A stretch of DNA of 64,000 nucleotides from sequence record PZ445427.1. One strand, written 5' to 3'. Shown in pieces: positions 4,274 through 21,290 of this stretch. Position numbers and translations under genes: made by a program. How positions within the stretch are numbered: position 1 is the stretch's first letter; each line of letters begins with the position of its first letter. This stretch comes from a phage. A model generated the notes under the pieces. The model saw nothing but the letters and a program-made list of their open reading frames with translations. It ran no database searches and was not told the origin of the DNA.

Positions 4274-6604
4274 ATGAGCCATCGCATAGAAAAAGTAATC
4301 AAACGTGACGGTACTGTAGAAGACTTTGCTCCTGAAAAACTCAATGGTTGGGCAGTGTATGGCTGCAAAACAGTTGATGTAAGCTGGTCATCCATCACTA
4401 TGGCTGCTCAAAAAACTCTACCTAAAGGTGTTGTAGACTCCGACACCCTAATGGATGCGTTAATTAAAGCCGCTGAAGGTCTTATCAAAGATAACCCAGC
4501 ATATGATGTGCCAGCTAAGGAATTACGTCTTGCGCAGATGCGTAAACGTCTATATGACTCCTTCGAGCCTCCTTCTCTGCGTTTCTTCCACGATCATATG
4601 GTTAGTGTTGGAGCTTGGGAAGACATGAGTGCATGGATTAGCGATGATCAGTTTGATGCTCTGAATCAAGTTATCGATCATGATCGCGATCGTTTATTCA
4701 CCAGTGGTGGACTGAAACAGTTCTTCGACAAGTATTCCCGTCGTAATATTGCAACTGGTGAAATTTATGAAACCCCGCAGTTTGCCTACATGGGCATGGC
4801 AATGGCGATGTTATCTCAACCTAACTGGACAATCCTAGATGCAATCGACCTCTACAATGCAATGTCGCTCCACAAAATCAACGTTCCTACTCCACCTCTC
4901 GTGGGTCTTAGGAGCAGCGACCGCGGTTTTGCTTCTTGTTGTCTTGTTGATAGTACTGATACCCTCGATTCAATCGACACAGCCGAGCATATCGTCTTCA
5001 AAATGGTCGCAGCCAGAGCGGGAATCGGGTATCATCTTGAAAGCCGATCAATTGCTGATCCGGTGCGAAATGGGGCATTCCCGCATTCCGGAAAACTGCC
5101 ATATTATCGACACATTGACCGTTCAGTAAAAGCTAACACTCAGCAAACCCGTGGCGGTTCTGCTACTGTGTCTTATCCATACTTCGATCCTGAAATCATT
5201 CAGTTGATGCAGGTTAAGCAGCAACGTGCTACAGACGAGAATAAAATCGATAAGATGGATTATTCTCTGAGCTTTAACAACCTTCTGTTAAAACGTTACC
5301 TGAAAAACGAAGATATTACGCTAATGTCCTACTTCTACGCACCAGAAGTTCATGAAGCGTTTTATGGTGAAGATGAGGCTAAGTTTGAAGAAATCTACGT
5401 GGCAGCGGAGAAACGTGTGGCATCTCTTACAAAGACCGACCACGAAGGAAAAACAATTCCAGCAGCTCCTAGAATCTCTGCAAAAGAAATCCTAGATACT
5501 TGGTTACGTATCCGTATGGAAACAGGGCGTATGTATGCTCATCACATTGGTGAATCTAACCGTCATGGTAACTTCCTTGACCCGATTCGTATGACCAACC
5601 TTTGTGTTGAAATTACTCAGCCAACCCGTCCATTCCATCACATTACGGAACTGTATAAAACCCAAGATCAGTTAGACGATATGCGTCCAGAAGATATTGG
5701 TGAAGTATCTCTGTGTAACTTAGGTGGTGTTGTACTAGGCCGCATGGAATCTCTGGCTGAATGGGAGAAAACTTGCTACATCCTTCTGAAATTCGTTGAT
5801 ACAATCATCGAGATTCAGGATTACCCATTCCCAACTATGGAATACACGGCTAAGAAACGTCGAAACGTTGGTATTGGCCTGATGAACGCAGCAGGTGCAA
5901 TGGCAGCAGAAGGTTTGGCTTACGAAGGTGTTGAAGCTCGTAACTGGATTCACCGTGAAGCTGAAAAACTGTCTTACTTCCTGCACAAAGCATCTGTACG
6001 TCTGGCTAAAGAACAAGGTGCATGTGACTGGTTTAATCGTACTAAGCCATCCAAAGGAACTCTGGTAATCGACACGTACAAGAAAACTGTTGATGAACTG
6101 GTAACCGTAGGTCTAGAAATGGATTGGGAATCTCTGCGTGCAGATATCCTGAAATACGGTATGCGTAACTCTGTTCTGACTGCTCAGATGCCGGGTGAAA
6201 GTTCCTCTGTACTGCTAGGTGTTACTAACTCTATTGAACCACCTCGTAAGATTGTATCTATCAAGGGTAGTGCAGTGAATAAAGTAATTGCAATTGCTCC
6301 AGGTGCAACCGATTGGGATACATTAATGAGCTATAAACTGGCTTATGATGTAGATCGTATCGAGTGGATCAAATGGGTAGCAACCATGCAGAAATTTTTC
6401 AGTCAGTCTATCAGTACGAATATGTACTATGACTACACCAAGTTTGAGAATGAAATCATTCCTGGTCCAGTAGTAGTTCGTGATTTCATGACTGCTGTTA
6501 AGTACGGTTGGAAAACTTGGTACTACGCTAACTTCAACACTGAAAATGGTGGTGGAGCTGGTGAAGAAGCAGCAGGTTGTGCATCCGGTGGTTGTAACCT
6601 ATAA
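4274..6604 (+). CDS. nrdA: ribonucleoside-diphosphate reductase large subunit (class Ia)
   Basis: ATP-cone VIKRDG start, C-terminal CxxxxC tail; start taken at ATG 4274 after AAAGGAAA (track ORF starts earlier at 4169). Confidence 0.9.
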   Translation: MSHRIEKVIKRDGTVEDFAPEKLNGWAVYGCKTVDVSWSSITMAAQKTLPKGVVDSDTLMDALIKAAEGLIKDNPAYDVPAKELRLAQMRKRLYDSFEPPSLRFFHDHMVSVGAWEDMSAWISDDQFDALNQVIDHDRDRLFTSGGLKQFFDKYSRRNIATGEIYETPQFAYMGMAMAMLSQPNWTILDAIDLYNAMSLHKINVPTPPLVGLRSSDRGFASCCLVDSTDTLDSIDTAEHIVFKMVAARAGIGYHLESRSIADPVRNGAFPHSGKLPYYRHIDRSVKANTQQTRGGSATVSYPYFDPEIIQLMQVKQQRATDENKIDKMDYSLSFNNLLLKRYLKNEDITLMSYFYAPEVHEAFYGEDEAKFEEIYVAAEKRVASLTKTDHEGKTIPAAPRISAKEILDTWLRIRMETGRMYAHHIGESNRHGNFLDPIRMTNLCVEITQPTRPFHHITELYKTQDQLDDMRPEDIGEVSLCNLGGVVLGRMESLAEWEKTCYILLKFVDTIIEIQDYPFPTMEYTAKKRRNVGIGLMNAAGAMAAEGLAYEGVEARNWIHREAEKLSYFLHKASVRLAKEQGACDWFNRTKPSKGTLVIDTYKKTVDELVTVGLEMDWESLRADILKYGMRNSVLTAQMPGESSSVLLGVTNSIEPPRKIVSIKGSAVNKVIAIAPGATDWDTLMSYKLAYDVDRIEWIKWVATMQKFFSQSISTNMYYDYTKFENEIIPGPVVVRDFMTAVKYGWKTWYYANFNTENGGGAGEEAAGCASGGCNL

Positions 6605-11844: not shown

Positions 11845-12546
11845 ATGAAATTCAAGCCCTTTGGTATGCTGGACATTGAATCTCTAGGTACTCCAGGAAA
11901 TTGCGGTACTACTCATATTGCAATGCCTTCTTTCGCTTTTGTAGCGATGCACGGAATTGATAAAGATCCTGATCTGGTATTCGTTACTCTAGACGTTCAA
12001 GATCAGCTTAATGCGGGTGCTAAGGTAACTGCCTCTACTATTGCATTCTGGATGGATCAAGCTAAAAACAGTCCATCTGCGCTCCATATTATGGAGGCTC
12101 TAAATGGTCGTAATCCTAAACTGATTGCCTTCCGTGATGGTAAGCATCACTGCACTAATGACGTAGGCTCTAATTATGCTGCCTTCTCTATGGCTCAGAA
12201 CATTATGGAATTGTCTCTAGGAGATAATGCTCTGTATTACGGCAATGGCCCAGAGTTTGATATGACAATCTACTCTGCAAATACGTTCCATGCCGGAACC
12301 CATGAAGAAATAGTTCCGTGGAAATTCTGGAACTTAGGTAACGTTCGATCTTTCCGTAATCAGTGGATGCAAGCTGGTTATAGCTATAAAGATCTAGAAG
12401 CCGAAGGTGCTAGCTGGGCAAAAGCTAAAATGGAAAAGATGGACACCATTCGTTATGGAATCTATCCTGTGAAGCATGATCCAGCATTCGATGCTTTAGT
12501 TGAAAGTTATTGTGTAGCCGTCATGATCGAAAAAATCAAAATTTGA
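11845..12546 (+). CDS. DEDDh-type 3'-5' exonuclease-like protein
   Basis: Exo I motif LDIES near N-terminus and Exo III motif HDPAFDA near C-terminus. Confidence 0.5.
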   Translation: MKFKPFGMLDIESLGTPGNCGTTHIAMPSFAFVAMHGIDKDPDLVFVTLDVQDQLNAGAKVTASTIAFWMDQAKNSPSALHIMEALNGRNPKLIAFRDGKHHCTNDVGSNYAAFSMAQNIMELSLGDNALYYGNGPEFDMTIYSANTFHAGTHEEIVPWKFWNLGNVRSFRNQWMQAGYSYKDLEAEGASWAKAKMEKMDTIRYGIYPVKHDPAFDALVESYCVAVMIEKIKI

Positions 12547-13492: not shown

Positions 13493-13501
13493 TAATTTAA
13501 A

Positions 13502-13855
13502 AGACTAGTAAATCGGTAGACGAAAGCCCAAGCATCTTACCTCGCAGCAGCGGTTGAAATACGAGGTTAAATAAGACCGCTGACCATACTATAAAGTATA
13601 ATCTATTGGAGATTATGTTTATTACATCAGACATTTAATCTGACACGTAAAAACAAAAGGTCGTTGGTAGTACCAACACAACTTCAAAGATCAACGCTCA
13701 AGTATGAAAGCTGAAAAGTTAAAAGCACTCAAACTTCTAACCTTCTAAAGCTAAAAGATGCAAAGTATTCGTTGATGATTCAAACCCTAGATCAAAGGTA
13801 CATGGCTCATAAGATATGGCCTGTGGCGCCTCTAGGCTGTTTATCGGTTTACTAG
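13502..13855 (+). other. ORF-free structured region closed by long-range stem (candidate ncRNA or processed 3' UTR)
   Basis: agactagtaaatcgg at 13502.. pairs with ccggtttactagtct at about 13840..13855; no ORF of 60 aa or more and no tRNA motif inside. Confidence 0.3.
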
Positions 13856-13876
13856 TCTCTCAATTTAAAAATGTAT

Positions 13877-13905
13877 TTGCTAATTAGTTTAGTTTTCTAT
13901 ATAAT
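13877..13905 (+). promoter_or_regulatory. T5-type early promoter
   Basis: ttgcta 13877..13882, 17 bp, tataat 13900..13905. Confidence 0.6.
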
Positions 13906-13935
13906 ATATTTTTAAATTGATGAGACGAGGCTATT

Positions 13936-14253
13936 ATGATTTTTCATATTCTGATTGATGATGTGCGTAACCTTCATGGAATGGACATTATCATTCGAAC
14001 CCCCGAAGCCGCTGTTGAGTTTCTGAATAAAACCGATACCACAGGTCATTTCGTTTATATGGATAACGATCTGGCTGTAGATGGTATGGAAGGTTATCAA
14101 ATTCTTCGTTTACTCCTAGAATTTGGTCAGAGACCCAAGAAAGTGGTACTAGTAACCTCGAACCCAGTAGCTAAAGAGACCATGCGTAATGATCTCTTAG
14201 ACGAAGGGTATCAAGAAAGCCCTAATCGTATTGAGTACGATTGGCCGGAGTAA
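13936..14253 (+). CDS. CheY-like receiver-domain protein (orphan)
   Basis: ILIDDV acidic pocket, YMDNDLAVDGMEG around the putative phospho-Asp, VVLVTSNP; 105 aa. Confidence 0.4.
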   Translation: MIFHILIDDVRNLHGMDIIIRTPEAAVEFLNKTDTTGHFVYMDNDLAVDGMEGYQILRLLLEFGQRPKKVVLVTSNPVAKETMRNDLLDEGYQESPNRIEYDWPE

Positions 14254-14258
14254 ATAAA

Positions 14259-14708
14259 ATGAAGGCAGCTTTGCTTTTAATAGCTGCCCTAACCTATAGC
14301 TTCAATAGTCATGCGACCTACGACTCAAAGCAGATTGATTGCATTGCAAAAAATATCTACTTCGAAGCACGAGGTGAGGGCACTAAAGGAATGATCGCAG
14401 TTGCACAGGTTACTAAAAACCGTGTTAACTCTGGTACTTTTCCTGATTCTTACTGTAAAGTAGTATATCAGTCTAACCAGTTCTCTTGGGTGGCCAAGAG
14501 ACCAAAAGTTGATAAAACCGATGAGGCTTGGCAAGTTGCTAAGAATTTAGCTAGAGTGATATACTACGTTGATTTACCACAAGATCCAACACATGGAGCG
14601 TTATACTTCCATAGTGGTAAAGATAAACCGTACTGGACAAAGAAGTTTAAGAAAACAACGAAGATTCAAGGCCATACGTTCTACAAGCCTGTGGTTAAGA
14701 AAACTTAA
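14259..14708 (+). CDS. secreted SleB-like cell-wall hydrolase (Hydrolase_2 family)
   Basis: Start ATG 14259 after GGAG gives signal peptide MKAALLLIAALTYSFNSHA; motifs NIYFEARGE, AVAQVTKNRV, YQSNQFSWV. Confidence 0.6.
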   Translation: MKAALLLIAALTYSFNSHATYDSKQIDCIAKNIYFEARGEGTKGMIAVAQVTKNRVNSGTFPDSYCKVVYQSNQFSWVAKRPKVDKTDEAWQVAKNLARVIYYVDLPQDPTHGALYFHSGKDKPYWTKKFKKTTKIQGHTFYKPVVKKT

Positions 14709-14776: not shown

Positions 14777-14947
14777 ATGAAATCAGTTGTAATTATTGGT
14801 GTTAATACTCGTGGTATCCGTACTACGAAAACAGTTAAAACTACTAACGTTGCTGAAATTACTACAAACCCTAAGAAGTTTGATTTCGCTAAAGTCTCGG
14901 CAGTTATGACAGAACAATCTTTTAACCAAGCACTGGGAATTAAATAA
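14777..14947 (+). CDS. small hypothetical protein (56 aa, below track cutoff)
   Basis: GAGAGGAAG RBS then ATG 14777; stop overlaps next start (TAATG). Confidence 0.45.
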   Translation: MKSVVIIGVNTRGIRTTKTVKTTNVAEITTNPKKFDFAKVSAVMTEQSFNQALGIK

Positions 14948-15390
14948 TGGAAGAGAATATTCTAAATGTTTTGCGTAGGGCTTTGCAGGAATCTAAGGTT
15001 GATGGTTCTGATAAAGAAGTAGCTAAAAGCTACCAGACCATAATCGGAGATCTTCAGCGTGTTGATAAAGACTTCATTACTTCTGAACAGTTTGTATCTT
15101 ATCTAAAAGCTCAACTGAAAAGCATTAATCAGACGAAAGCTAAACTTCACGGTCAAGACCTTGATAATTATAGCTTGCAGTCTGCTCAGTATGAGTATAT
15201 ACTGAACAAATGGCTACAACAGTATCTGCCGCCTCAGTTATCTGATTCTGAGATTCGCAAATACTTTGCAGAATTAGTTAAGTTGAACCCTGGGATTACA
15301 AAAGGTATGCTGATGAAAGCGATTAAGGAAGAGTTTCCTGGTCGTTACGACGGTGGCATTGCTGCTCAGGTTGCTGGCGAATTTAATTAA
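14947..15390 (+). CDS. YqeY/GatB-domain-like protein
   Basis: 147 aa; LNVLRRALQESK ... ELVKLNPGITKGMLMKAIKEEFPGRYDG resembles YqeY family. Confidence 0.45.
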   Translation: MEENILNVLRRALQESKVDGSDKEVAKSYQTIIGDLQRVDKDFITSEQFVSYLKAQLKSINQTKAKLHGQDLDNYSLQSAQYEYILNKWLQQYLPPQLSDSEIRKYFAELVKLNPGITKGMLMKAIKEEFPGRYDGGIAAQVAGEFN

Positions 15391-15398
15391 AAATTGAT

Positions 15399-15427
15399 TT
15401 GCTAAACGCCTCAAAATTCTGTATAAT
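15399..15427 (+). promoter_or_regulatory. T5-type early promoter (very close to classical P_N25 sequence)
   Basis: ttgcta 15399..15404, 17 bp, tataat 15422..15427, then AGATTCATAAATT. Confidence 0.65.
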
Positions 15428-16286
15428 AGATTCATAAATTAGAGAACAGCGAGCCGATTACGCTGAGTGAGTTTAGTGATTCCTACTAGGATAGCTATTC
15501 CACTGAATAGAGTCGGTGAGTTGGAGACTAGTAAGTACTCTGAGAGAGGCTACGAGCTAACGCTTATTGCTATTGATAGGGAACTGAAAATCTGCGGAAA
15601 ACTCGGGAGCTGTCCCGAAATCTCGTAAACTCTTCTCTAGTTTATGTTAGTGGGGTGTCGAACTGACTTATGTGATAACACTGCCGTCCTAGTATAAACG
15701 GTAATATCAAACCGTAACTGGTGGAAGATGCAGGTTCGAATCCTGCGGTCGGAAAGAATCAGATAACTCGGGCTTATACCGGATAAGCATTCGCTGCTGG
15801 AGTACATACTATGACGGTTCAGGAGGTACGCCACCTGATCAGTATTAGGTTAGAATCGAAACAGCTAAACCACGAGGAAACCTGACGGCCTCAACCAAAC
15901 TCGGAACTCGGGATCACTGCCTAGTGTGTGCCCCGTTTAACCTGAGACTAGGCATCCAGCTTCGCATCGAAAATCGGAGGTGCGATTCTAACAGACCGCG
16001 TGAATATGAGAGTGGGAAACGCTGACATGAGAGATGTCACTAATGGTGCCCAATAGTACAGGTAATTCGCGATAATTCCTGTTGAGCGGCAGCAGTAGGC
16101 TGGGAGTCATGACCTAAGCCTAACCGAGTTCTTCACATACGGAGAACATAACCACAAAGTCACCCTGACTTAAACTGGAAGATATTGTCTGACGGAAGGG
16201 CTGCAGAGCTTAATCTGAGGGGGCTGACCCTACCTACCGTCGGGTATCTTTAAGAGCTTTTATAAGAGTTCTTAAAAATACCTAAA

Positions 16287-16361
16287 CGGGGTGTAGTCTA
16301 AGGGATAGGCAGGAGTCTTCTAAATTCCTTTATGCAGGTTCGAATCCTGTCACCTCGGCCA
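16287..16361 (+). tRNA. tRNA-Arg(TCT)
   Basis: Acceptor cggggtg/cacctcg, anticodon loop cttctaa, T-arm gcagg-ttcgaat-cctgt, CCA encoded. Confidence 0.75.
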
Positions 16362-19496: not shown

Positions 19497-19525
19497 TTGC
19501 TTGAATGCTAAATTCTCTGTATAAT
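19497..19525 (+). promoter_or_regulatory. T5-type early promoter
   Basis: ttgctt 19497..19502, 17 bp, tataat 19520..19525. Confidence 0.6.
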
Positions 19526-19555
19526 ATATTTATAAATTTGAGAGAGGAATCAAAT

Positions 19556-20611
19556 ATGATTAAGACTGGTCTAGTAATTGGTAAGTTCGCACCATTAACG
19601 CGTGGTCATATTAACCTAATAAACACAGCAGCAACTATGTGTGAACGAGTTATTGTTGTAGTTAGTCATGATAATCGTTGGCTGGATAAGCAGAACACAC
19701 GTGATCAGGAAGTATTACAGTTAAAGAATCGACTTCGTTGGTTAGAACAAACTTACGCGGATATTGAGCACATTTCGGTAGAGTACATTATTGAAGATGA
19801 TATTCCTGAATATCCGAATGGTTGGCCGGAATATGCTAGAATCCTTAATGAAAATTACGGACATTTGCCTGAGATCACCATTTTCTCTAGCGAACTAGAC
19901 TATGATGCAGAATATAAGAAATATCTGCCGAAGTTTGGTCATTATATTGTAGATTCTGATCGGACTCGTGTTCCAATCTCAGCTACAATGATTCGTAATG
20001 ATCTTATGAAGTATTGGGAGTTTCTTCCTAGCGTAGTTCGTAAAGATTACGTGCGTAAGGTTGTAATCATTGGGACTGAAAGCTCGGGAAAGACTACTTT
20101 AACAAAATACCTTGCGAAGCTATACAACACTTCGTGGGTAGAAGAATATGGCCGAACGTATTGTGAAGTTGATCTAGTTGGTAACGAAAATCTACTTACC
20201 AGTGAAGATTATAGTAAAATTGCGTTCAGACACAAAGAGCTAGAGTTTGAAGCAGAACGTACTGCAAATAAGATCATGTTTGTGGATACAAATGCTTTTA
20301 TTACTGAGTTCTACCACAGACTTTATGAACATCGTAAGAATCCTGTGGTTACAGCAATTGCAAAAGAAGAACATTACGATTTAGTAATTGTTCTAGCGCC
20401 TACTGTTAAGTGGGTAGATGATGGTTTACGTATTAACTCCGATCGTTCAATTACTTCTGAACTGTTCGAGCAGATGAAGAAAGAATTTCCAAATCAGTTC
20501 CCTGAAGGGCGTACTGTTTACATCGACTCCCCGGACTACAAAGTTCGTATGGACGAAGCAGTAAACGCAGTAGACTGGCTGATTCATCACTTTAACGTTG
20601 GAGAGTTTTAA
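19556..20611 (+). CDS. nadR: NadR-like bifunctional NMN adenylyltransferase / ribosylnicotinamide kinase
   Basis: GKFAPLTRGH nucleotidyltransferase motif and IIGTESSGKTTL P-loop; start ATG 19556 (track start 19505 lies in promoter). Confidence 0.7.
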   Translation: MIKTGLVIGKFAPLTRGHINLINTAATMCERVIVVVSHDNRWLDKQNTRDQEVLQLKNRLRWLEQTYADIEHISVEYIIEDDIPEYPNGWPEYARILNENYGHLPEITIFSSELDYDAEYKKYLPKFGHYIVDSDRTRVPISATMIRNDLMKYWEFLPSVVRKDYVRKVVIIGTESSGKTTLTKYLAKLYNTSWVEEYGRTYCEVDLVGNENLLTSEDYSKIAFRHKELEFEAERTANKIMFVDTNAFITEFYHRLYEHRKNPVVTAIAKEEHYDLVIVLAPTVKWVDDGLRINSDRSITSELFEQMKKEFPNQFPEGRTVYIDSPDYKVRMDEAVNAVDWLIHHFNVGEF

Positions 20612-20612
20612 T

Positions 20613-21290
20613 ATGACTAACTATCTTGTAAATGACTTTAAAAACTGGAAACCTTTGGAATATCTGTGGCTGTTTATAGCAGTCGCCTTTATTAGTTTAG
20701 CAAACTATAATGGTACAGCTCTAGATTGGGCTACTGCAATAACCAATGTGGTTTGTGTTATTCTGGTTGCAAAAGGACGTGTTTCCAACTATATTTGGGG
20801 CTTAGTGGGTGTTCTTACATATGGTATTACAGCTTTAAACGCAGATCTTTATGGTAACGCTGCACTAAACCTGCTATACTACGTTCCTATGCAGTTTTAT
20901 GGAATGTACTTATGGCATAAAAATAAGCCAAGTAATCTGCCAGATGTTCCAACTAAGGTTCTGACTAAAGCCCAAGCTCTGCTGACTCTAGGGATTCTAG
21001 CAGTAGCCACGTTAGGGTATGGTAGTTTCTTAGCTACTACGGCTGATCCATTCCCAATGTTGGATGCATTTACTGCGGTAGGTAGTGTGATCGCTATGTG
21101 GCTTATGGTTAAGCAGTATGCCGAGCAGTGGCTGATCTGGATTGCTATTAACATTGGTACTGTGTACATTTGGCTTGTAACTGCTCAATCTACAGGTGCA
21201 TCTTATGCAATCCTAGCAATGTGGCTAGTATTCTTAGGTAACTCTATTATGGGAGCCTATAAAGGATACTTTGTACGCGTTAACAAATAA
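20613..21290 (+). CDS. pnuC: PnuC-like nicotinamide riboside transporter
   Basis: Polytopic membrane protein immediately after nadR; start ATG 20613 after GGAGAG. Confidence 0.6.
   Translation: MTNYLVNDFKNWKPLEYLWLFIAVAFISLANYNGTALDWATAITNVVCVILVAKGRVSNYIWGLVGVLTYGITALNADLYGNAALNLLYYVPMQFYGMYLWHKNKPSNLPDVPTKVLTKAQALLTLGILAVATLGYGSFLATTADPFPMLDAFTAVGSVIAMWLMVKQYAEQWLIWIAINIGTVYIWLVTAQSTGASYAILAMWLVFLGNSIMGAYKGYFVRVNK

What the first reader, a model, noticed from the sequence alone, without database searches (positions are those of the whole stretch)
13936..14253. Orphan CheY-like receiver domain encoded by a lytic phage
The 105-aa protein has the acidic pocket (IDDV), a conserved Asp in a YMDNDLAVDGMEG context and a TSNP segment, characteristic of response-regulator receiver domains, with no output domain and no kinase nearby. 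It could act as a phosphate sink or decoy for a host two-component system.
Basis: seen in the sequence. Interest (0 to 1): 0.5.

Follow-up and report, generated by a model that had tools for sequence, protein, structure and literature searches.

The report
Phage T5-type cREC receiver-like protein
This real, strongly conserved early gene of a T5-like phage encodes a stripped-down receiver-fold protein of the already described, still untested "cREC" family, which is predicted to be a small phosphoesterase and not a decoy for host two-component signalling.

Summary
The ORF 13936-14253 (+) exists as described. It is the ortholog of phage T5 gene T5.084 and is under strong purifying selection (dN/dS about 0.09). 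It has its own sigma70-like promoter and ribosome-binding site.

It does not match Pfam Response_reg. It matches PF20274 cREC_REC (55 bits; cut-off 27), the "cyclic-phosphate processing receiver" family defined by Iyer et al. 2021/2022. Near-identical T5-like proteins already carry that name in UniProt and NCBI.

No histidine kinase is nearby. In other phage lineages the homolog lies beside RtcB, a HAD "Swiss-army-knife" RNA-repair phosphatase, a P-loop kinase or tRNA genes. No partner is universal.

Best reading: a small Asp-based phosphoesterase acting on a nucleotide or RNA phosphate. The substrate is unproven.

The phosphate-sink idea is not supported.

In passing, I found a conserved, covariation-supported structured RNA (13502-13858) just upstream. 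It is not annotated in the records examined.

The parts
13877..13905 (+). Sigma70-type promoter-like site (TTGCTA, 17 nt, TATAAT) for the transcription unit that starts with the cREC gene
   Evidence: 10 of 12 matches. The T5 record annotates a promoter in the 75 nt directly upstream of the ortholog T5.084. BF23 has a predicted early promoter at the same place.
13927..13930 (+). Ribosome-binding site GAGG, 5 nt before the ATG
   Evidence: Read directly from the sequence.
13936..14253 (+). CDS of 105 aa. It is a cREC-family (PF20274) minimal receiver-fold protein and the ortholog of T5.084 / TrudiRoth bas30_0077.
13957..13968 (+). Codons for D8, D9 (acidic pair at the end of strand beta1, the CheY D12/D13 position), V10 and R11. 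D8 and D9 are invariant; R11 is R in 114 of 120.
   Evidence: strand positions from the model.
13996..13998 (+). Codon for R21, invariant in the family, at the end of strand beta2. It has no counterpart among the canonical receiver residues.
14062..14070 (+). Codons for D43-N44-D45 at the end of strand beta3. D43 aligns with the CheY phospho-acceptor D57. D45 (acceptor+2) is invariant and gives a HAD-like DxD motif. N44 marks the DND subfamily.
14155..14163 (+). Codons for T74-S75-N76 at the end of strand beta4. T74 aligns with CheY T87 and is always T or S. N76 is N in 119 of 120.
14209..14223 (+). Codons for Y92-Q93-E94-S95-P96 in strand beta5. Y92 aligns with CheY Y106. S95 occupies the CheY K109 position, so the conserved Lys is absent.
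14259..14708 (+). Next gene, 6 nt downstream and probably co-transcribed: a SleB-like cell-wall hydrolase (Pfam Hydrolase_2). DUF7616 (14777-14947) and a YqeY-like protein (14947-15390) follow.
   Evidence: The same order is kept in T5, PMBT31, KKP_3711 and SHSML-45.

Best explanation
The gene encodes a stand-alone member of the cREC ('cyclic-phosphate processing receiver') family. cREC is a phage-borne offshoot of the receiver fold that has lost helices alpha1 and alpha5 and the conserved Lys. It has kept the Mg-binding Asp pair (D8, D9), the Asp at the phospho-acceptor position (D43) and the Thr/Ser (T74). It has gained an invariant Asp two residues after the acceptor (D45, as in the DxD motif of HAD phosphatases), two Arg (R11, R21) and Asn76. 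Shown here: family membership, fold, residue conservation, purifying selection, an own early-type promoter and the absence of any kinase partner. Inferred: it is an enzyme, not a signalling switch. D43 would attack a phosphate ester, with D45 as general acid/base and the Arg residues holding the substrate phosphates. The published prediction for the substrate is a 2',3'-cyclic phosphate on cleaved RNA/tRNA, or a cyclic-phosphate ADP-ribose or nucleotide derivative. Early in infection this would help either to repair or clear nuclease-damaged tRNA or to remove a nucleotide-type immune signal. Sub-confidences: cREC membership and receiver fold about 0.95; a catalytic phosphoesterase of some kind about 0.5; the specific cyclic-phosphate RNA/ADPr substrate about 0.3.
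Against: No cREC protein has been tested biochemically: the 2022 paper says so, and I found no later paper. In the annotated T5-like records examined there is no phage RNA ligase, polynucleotide kinase, 2H, Nudix, Macro or sirtuin, so an RNA-repair role would need host enzymes. In my sample of 24 other lineages most neighbours are unannotated small early genes and no partner is universal. tRNA genes within 5 kb occur in only about 6 of 24 lineages, and I could not estimate a background rate. The T74/Y92 pair that mediates switching in classical receivers is retained, which would also fit a phospho-switch. I could not inspect model coordinates, so active-site geometry is inferred from strand ends only. 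The alignment to CheY is low-confidence at sequence level (hhalign probability 12.6%).
Confidence: 0.5

Rival explanations
1. The protein is an orphan response-regulator receiver that takes phosphoryl groups from host histidine kinases (or acetyl phosphate). It thereby drains or decoys a host two-component pathway during infection.
For: It has a receiver fold. D8/D9, D43 and T74 sit at the canonical positions. The aromatic Y92 sits at the CheY Y106 position. Small-molecule phosphodonors do not need a docking helix (established knowledge).
Against: There is no Response_reg match. Helices alpha1 and alpha5, which form the kinase/Hpt docking surface in solved complexes (established knowledge), are absent in a confident model. 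The Lys109 equivalent is absent and not conserved. R11, R21, D45 and N76 are invariant across phages of very different hosts (enterobacteria, Vibrio, uncultured phages) and CPR bacterial genomes, which points to a common small substrate and not to host-specific kinases. No histidine kinase or Hpt family was among the 25 most frequent Pfam families found in neighbours of 24 lineages. The literature reports that the family is never found with histidine kinases.
Confidence: 0.07
2. The protein is a non-catalytic binder. It sequesters a phosphorylated small molecule (a nucleotide immune signal, as Tad1, Tad2 and Acb2 do), or it acts as a ligand- or phosphate-dependent adaptor that binds a host protein.
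For: It is small (about 100 aa), stand-alone, early-expressed and phage-restricted, like known sponge proteins. One homolog lies within 2.5 kb of a Tad3 Thoeris inhibitor gene. The T74/Y92 switch pair is retained.
Against: The invariant set (DD, DxD, T/S, N and two Arg) looks like a phosphoryl-transfer site and not a mere pocket. There is no match to PADLOC models or to other Pfam families, including Pfam's Tad3 model. No oligomeric state could be assessed.
Confidence: 0.2
3. The protein is a partner or regulator of the adjacent SleB-like cell-wall hydrolase, or of the small conserved operon cREC - SleB-like - DUF7616 - YqeY-like. Its function would then be tied to the envelope and not to nucleotides.
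For: There are 6 nt between the two genes here. The order is conserved across Demerecviridae. A SleB-like gene is also directly adjacent, in the opposite order, in an unrelated family-B-polymerase phage contig, L023.
Against: This holds in only 2 of about 25 lineages. Other genes are inserted between the two in PMBT31 and KKP_3711. cREC has no signal peptide, whereas the hydrolase has an N-terminal hydrophobic leader, so they would act in different compartments.
Confidence: 0.08

Closest known systems
cREC / cREC_REC (Pfam PF20274), 'cyclic-phosphate processing receiver domain' (Iyer, Anantharaman, Krishnan, Burroughs, Aravind 2021, PMC7824862; Iyer et al. 2022, PMC9503650)
   Same: Member. 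The HMM score is twice the cut-off. It has the same invariant Asp residues, the same stand-alone size of about 100 aa, a phage origin and no histidine kinase. Near-identical T5-like proteins already carry this name.
   Different: It belongs to the DND...NPVA subfamily (38 of 120 representatives) and not the majority DHD...NPVG subfamily (72 of 120). In T5-like phages it is not next to an RNA ligase, Nudix, sirtuin or 2H gene as in the published prototypes. Instead it heads an operon with a SleB-like hydrolase beside the tRNA region.
Classical two-component receiver domains (Pfam Response_reg PF00072; CheY, Spo0F)
   Same: Same fold core and strand order. It has the acidic pair after beta1, Asp after beta3, Thr after beta4 and an aromatic residue in beta5.
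   Different: No HMM match. Helices alpha1 and alpha5 are missing, the conserved Lys is missing, and there is no partner kinase. It has an invariant Asp at acceptor+2 plus extra invariant Arg and Asn residues.
HAD-superfamily phosphatases, including the 'Swiss-army-knife' RNA-repair HAD and T4 Pnkp phosphatase
   Same: The active-site logic that I infer is shared: a nucleophilic Asp in a DxD motif, a Thr/Ser, an acidic pair for Mg2+ and a covalent aspartyl-phosphate intermediate. The similarity of receiver and HAD sites is established knowledge.
2H phosphoesterases (LigT/ThpR, phage Acb1)
   Same: This is the role the literature predicts for cREC: opening 2',3'- or 1''-2''-cyclic phosphates in RNA repair or in destruction of immune signals.
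   Different: The fold is unrelated. There are no paired HxT/S motifs in this protein (read directly from the sequence).

Membership tests
cREC_REC (PF20274) | Match to the family HMM above the curated gathering score | tested here: met
   55.3 bits against a cut-off of 27, E=1.1e-14, residues 4-87 on profile positions 2-86 of 88.
cREC_REC (PF20274) | Conserved aspartates at the receiver active-site positions (DD after beta1, D after beta3) | tested here: met
   D8, D9, D43 (and D45) are invariant in 120 representatives. They sit at strand ends in the model.
cREC_REC (PF20274) | Receiver-like (Rossmannoid) fold | tested here: met
cREC_REC (PF20274) | Never combined with a histidine kinase | tested here: met
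   No kinase is annotated or detected around the gene or in the annotated T5-like region. No histidine kinase or Hpt family was among the 25 most frequent Pfam families found in 144 neighbour proteins of 24 lineages.
cREC_REC (PF20274) | Genomic association with RNA-repair or NAD/ADP-ribose processing genes | tested here: inconclusive
   In T5-like phages no RNA ligase, 2H, Nudix or sirtuin is annotated; only tRNA genes, an exoribonuclease, a YqeY-like gene and, in this genus, NadR/PnuC lie nearby. In other lineages I found RtcB, HAD_SAK_2, AAA_33 kinase and DUF2828 in 4 of 24.
cREC_REC (PF20274) | Cyclic-phosphate phosphoesterase activity (the property the name asserts) | not testable with these tools
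   This is predicted only. The 2022 paper states that the family is experimentally uncharacterised.
Response_reg (PF00072), classical two-component receiver | Match to the family HMM | tested here: not met
   No hit at E<=10. A family profile against PDB receiver sequences gives only E=0.03-5. CheY by phmmer gives E=1.4.
Response_reg (PF00072), classical two-component receiver | Acidic pair, phospho-acceptor Asp and Thr/Ser (CheY D12, D13, D57, T87) | tested here: met
   D8/D9, D43 and T74. The CheY alignment is low-confidence by sequence but agrees with the model's strand ends.
Response_reg (PF00072), classical two-component receiver | Conserved Lys in the beta5-alpha5 loop (CheY K109) | tested here: not met
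   Ser95 occupies that position. Across the family it is N 20, K 16, S 14 and others, out of 120.
Response_reg (PF00072), classical two-component receiver | Full (beta-alpha)5 architecture with helices alpha1 and alpha5 | tested here: not met
   Residues 8-17 are a loop in the model, and after beta5 there is only a short C-terminal strand. The model has three helices in all.
Response_reg (PF00072), classical two-component receiver | Cognate histidine kinase or Hpt donor | tested here: not met
   None is encoded nearby. Use of host kinases cannot be tested with these tools.
HAD phosphatase superfamily | Motif I DxD on strand 1 followed by the squiggle/flap, then motifs II-IV in order | tested here: not met
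2H phosphoesterase superfamily | Two HxT/S motifs in a duplicated fold | tested here: not met
   The protein has only H4, H14 and H38, and none is in an HxT/S motif. The fold is receiver-like.

The most novel reading that the evidence does not exclude
T5.084-type cREC would be a counter-defence enzyme with a chemistry not yet seen in the receiver fold. An aspartyl-phosphate intermediate on D43, with D45 as acid/base, would open 2',3'-cyclic phosphates. The substrates would be tRNA halves made by host anticodon nucleases, so that host RtcB or turnover can deal with them, or cyclic-phosphate-bearing immune messengers. This would complement the phage's large tRNA set.
Probability: 0.25. Interest if true: 0.6.

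Novelty: already known. Interest (0 to 1): 0.3.

Why it matters
This corrects a tempting mis-reading: "phage CheY-like protein" suggests hijacking of host signalling, but the evidence points to a different, enzyme-like branch of the fold. The family is widespread, with about 4,800 clusters at 90% identity, and is entirely untested. T5 is a tractable model phage with an ortholog (T5.084), so the published cyclic-phosphate prediction could be tested directly there. The upstream structured RNA is a separate lead. It is not annotated in the records I examined, and I did not establish whether it has been described before.

Tried and rejected
- NCBIfam, PADLOC and PDB sequence searches gave nothing significant.
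- The AFDB50 fold library was not available.
I therefore used motif-defined sub-alignments and one degenerate DNA pattern, so the locus sample is biased to sequences with exact VTSNPVGR, LVTSNPVA or MNPVG motifs.
- BLAST clustering of 591 neighbour ORFs found no partner shared by more than three independent lineages (thymidylate synthase in 3, SleB-like hydrolase in 2).
- Three distant homologs on long contigs sat among unannotated small early genes.
- Literature searches for T5.084, YP_006912, KVP40.0304, PF20274 and for experimental work on phage receiver domains found nothing beyond the two Aravind-group papers.
- I considered whether tRNA proximity is statistically enriched. I could not build a fair background, so I report counts only.
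- I could not obtain model coordinates, so I measured no residue distances.
- The search for literature on T5 stable RNAs that might cover the upstream element returned nothing relevant.

Full report
**Observation.**
A GAGG ribosome-binding site lies 5 nt upstream. A TTGCTA-17-TATAAT promoter-like site lies at 13877-13905.

The window is a T5-like phage of the genus Epseptimavirus, 99.9% identical over this stretch to Salmonella phage EH3 and Escherichia phage TrudiRoth. The gene is bas30_0077 in TrudiRoth and T5.084 in phage T5. In T5 a promoter is annotated directly upstream, and the only note is "similar to KVP40.0304". Every listed GenBank phage record that annotates this gene calls it hypothetical.

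The gene is real. Among 18 distinct T5-like alleles the median dN/dS is 0.085. Window versus T5 gives dN 0.050 and dS 0.546.

**Family.**
Pfam gives no Response_reg match even at E<=10. The protein instead matches PF20274 cREC_REC ("cyclic-phosphate processing receiver domain") at 55.3 bits against a cut-off of 27, and PHROG 1479 of unknown function.

Close homologs in the large protein collection all carry PF20274 only. Several T5-like ones are already named [quoted passage not shown] by UniProt or NCBI. A 98%-identical fragment from Salmonella phage SE24 carries that name in the viral structure library.

The family was defined by comparative genomics in Iyer et al. 2021 (PMC7824862) and revisited in 2022 (PMC9503650). 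Those papers describe a divergent receiver domain that:
- is never found with histidine kinases;
- is linked by neighbourhood or fusion to RNA ligases, Nudix, sirtuin, 2H and WYL genes;
- is predicted to open 2',3'-cyclic or ADPr-1''-2''-cyclic phosphates;
- is explicitly "experimentally uncharacterized".

I found no later experimental paper.

**Structure.**
An AlphaFold2 model built on 17 homologs is confident (pLDDT 91.5, pTM 0.85). Its secondary-structure order is:
- strand 4-7;
- a loop at 8-17;
- strand 18-20;
- helix 23-32;
- strand 39-42;
- helix 53-62;
- strand 69-72;
- helix 77-90;
- a short strand pair near 92-102.

Compared with the canonical (beta-alpha)5 receiver, helix alpha1 is replaced by a loop and helix alpha5 is absent.

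A profile-to-CheY alignment is weak by sequence (hhalign probability 12.6%) but consistent with the strand ends of the model. It gives these correspondences:

| This protein | CheY |
|---|---|
| D43 | D57 |
| D45 | N59 |
| T74 | T87 |
| G91-Y92 | G105-Y106 |
| S95 | K109 |

**Conservation.**
An exhaustive profile search finds about 400 clusters at 50% identity. The word-indexed search finds about 4,800 clusters at 90% identity. Of the sequences listed, nearly all are stand-alone proteins of 95-115 aa.

In 120 representatives:
- D8, D9, R21, D43, D45 and G53 are invariant;
- R11 (114 of 120), N76 (119 of 120), P67 and Y92 are nearly invariant;
- position 74 is always Thr or Ser;
- the Lys109-equivalent position is variable.

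Position 44 and position 79 covary almost perfectly: H with G in 72 sequences, N with A in 38, and other combinations in 10. This splits the family into DHD...NPVG and DND...NPVA subfamilies. The T5-like proteins belong to the latter.

**What this says about mechanism (inference).**
The receiver chemistry for forming an aspartyl phosphate is retained: the Mg-binding Asp pair, the acceptor Asp and the Thr. The parts needed for signalling are gone: the kinase-docking helix alpha1, the alpha4-beta5-alpha5 output face and Lys109.

New invariant residues appear around the site. An Asp two residues after the acceptor reproduces the DxD motif in which HAD phosphatases place their nucleophile and their general acid/base. 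Two Arg residues at the ends of beta1 and beta2 could hold substrate phosphates in place of the lost Lys.

This pattern fits a small enzyme acting on a conserved phosphorylated small molecule or RNA end better than a sink for host-specific kinases. I could not obtain model coordinates, so I did not measure the geometry.

**Context.**
In this phage the gene opens a conserved early transcription unit:
- cREC;
- 6 nt later, a SleB-like cell-wall hydrolase;
- DUF7616;
- a YqeY-like protein.

An Rv2179c-like 3'-5' exoribonuclease lies 1.4 kb upstream. A tRNA-like element lies at 15683-15754. The first of 29 tRNA genes is at 16287. A Band-7 protein follows, and in this genus a NadR-like NMN adenylyltransferase/kinase plus PnuC lie at 19.5-21.3 kb. 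The NadR/PnuC pair is absent from the equivalent T5 stretch.

No RNA ligase, polynucleotide kinase, 2H, Nudix, Macro or sirtuin is annotated in the T5-like regions examined. No histidine kinase is annotated there either.

To test the published context claim independently, I collected 24 other phage lineages with homologs.
- tRNA genes lie within 5 kb in about 6 lineages: inside a tRNA array in L014, and 26 nt after a tRNA in L028.
- Pfam scans of 144 neighbours found RtcB (L057, also with tRNAs), HAD_SAK_2 "Swiss-army-knife" RNA-repair phosphatase directly upstream (L061), an overlapping AAA_33 P-loop kinase (L018), and DUF2828/DUF7788 in KVP40-like phages.
- The same scans found three calcineurin-like phosphoesterases, one Tad3, an AbiEi/AbiEii pair, and ribosomal-L12-like genes in one group of related phages.
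- No histidine kinase or Hpt family was among the 25 most frequent of the 66 Pfam families matched; the other 41 were not listed.

Most neighbours are unannotated small early genes, and no partner is universal. The RNA-end-repair theme is therefore reproduced in a minority of lineages. It is not directly supported in T5-like phages, where any repair role would have to use host enzymes.

**Verdict on the interpretation.**

The functional part, a phosphate sink or decoy for host two-component systems, has no support and several points against it.

The finding is a correctly spotted member of an already named, computationally described and experimentally untested family. Its interest lies mainly in the fact that T5 offers a tractable system to test the cREC prediction.

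**Seen in passing.**
The 443-nt gap upstream of the gene is the most conserved stretch between this phage and T5 in a 10-kb comparison: 93-99% identity in 150-nt bins, against 79-92% in the flanking genes. It folds far better than shuffled controls (z = -5.8).

With the one divergent relative available (Enterobacter phage KKP_3711), an RNAalifold structure of 85 pairs is 96% paired. It has 18 pairs with compensatory double changes, against 0-4 in slid controls. These include 10 in a 21-bp closing helix (13502-13522 with 13838-13858) that has no broken pair and four invariant G-U pairs, which implies an RNA on the + strand.

The element is present in 447 T5-like records. It is unannotated in nearly all of the 40 records listed, apart from an overlapping predicted promoter or hypothetical ORF in three. 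It has no Rfam match. In PMBT31 it is followed by a different ORF, so it belongs with the 3' end of the upstream T5.085-like gene and not with cREC. All the covariation comes from one sequence, so it is not a set of independent events.

Noticed in passing
window 13502-13858 (+), within the gap 13493-13935: A conserved structured RNA candidate of about 360 nt. It is the most conserved stretch against T5 in 10 kb (93-99% identity). Fold z = -5.8. The consensus structure has 85 pairs, 96% paired, and 18 pairs with compensatory changes; 10 of those are in a 21-bp closing helix with invariant G-U pairs. It is present in 447 T5-like records, nearly always unannotated in the records listed, and has no Rfam hit. 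All covariation rests on one divergent phage (KKP_3711)..
   Followed up: partly
window 15683-15754 (+) and 15399-15427: Rfam finds a tRNA-like match (29.3 bits, at the gathering score) that ARAGORN does not call. It lies in the stretch that T5 annotates as 'RNAX, stable RNA with unknown functions'. A second TTGCTA-17-TATAAT promoter-like site precedes it..
   Followed up: no
window 14259-14708; locus L023 4474-4887 and about 4897-5219: A SleB-like cell-wall hydrolase (Hydrolase_2) is directly adjacent to the cREC gene in T5-like phages (downstream). It is also adjacent, in the opposite order, in an unrelated family-B-polymerase phage contig. In L023 the cREC reading frame is broken at a TGTGTGTG run, probably an assembly error..
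   Followed up: partly
cREC family alignment A2, positions 44 and 79 of the window protein: There is near-perfect covariation of His/Asn at position 44 (between the two catalytic-position Asp residues) with Gly/Ala at position 79 (NPVG/NPVA): H+G 72, N+A 38, other 10. This defines two subfamilies and suggests that the two positions contact each other..
   Followed up: partly
window 19505-21290 (+): A NadR-like protein (cytidylyltransferase-like plus AAA_28 kinase domains) and a PnuC NMN transporter form an NAD+ salvage pair in this Epseptimavirus. The equivalent T5 stretch carries other genes on the opposite strand instead..
   Followed up: no
locus L070 1985-2806 (Shigella phage SHSML-45); protein P0030: In some T5-like phages the cREC domain is the C-terminal half of a 273-aa protein. 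By eye the N-terminal half looks like an HNH homing endonuclease, which suggests a fusion created by endonuclease insertion. In INF11 an HNH gene abuts the cREC gene..
   Followed up: no
loci L064 1395-1682 and L066 about 5742-5774: cREC homologs also occur in metagenome-assembled genomes of CPR bacteria (Falkowbacteria, Parcubacteria, Paceibacterota). One is on a 565-kb contig. In two genomes the homolog lies within about 1 kb of what looks like methionyl-tRNA formyltransferase (judged by eye from N-terminal motifs)..
   Followed up: no
window 11845-12546 (+): This 233-aa protein matches Pfam Rv2179c-like 3'-5' exoribonuclease (E=1.3e-7). Public records annotate it variously as metallopeptidase, exonuclease or recombination exonuclease..
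   Followed up: no
loci L009, L011, L017, L019 (gene directly downstream of cREC): In one group of related uncultured phages the gene overlapping the cREC stop codon encodes a protein with a ribosomal L7/L12 C-terminal domain..
   Followed up: no
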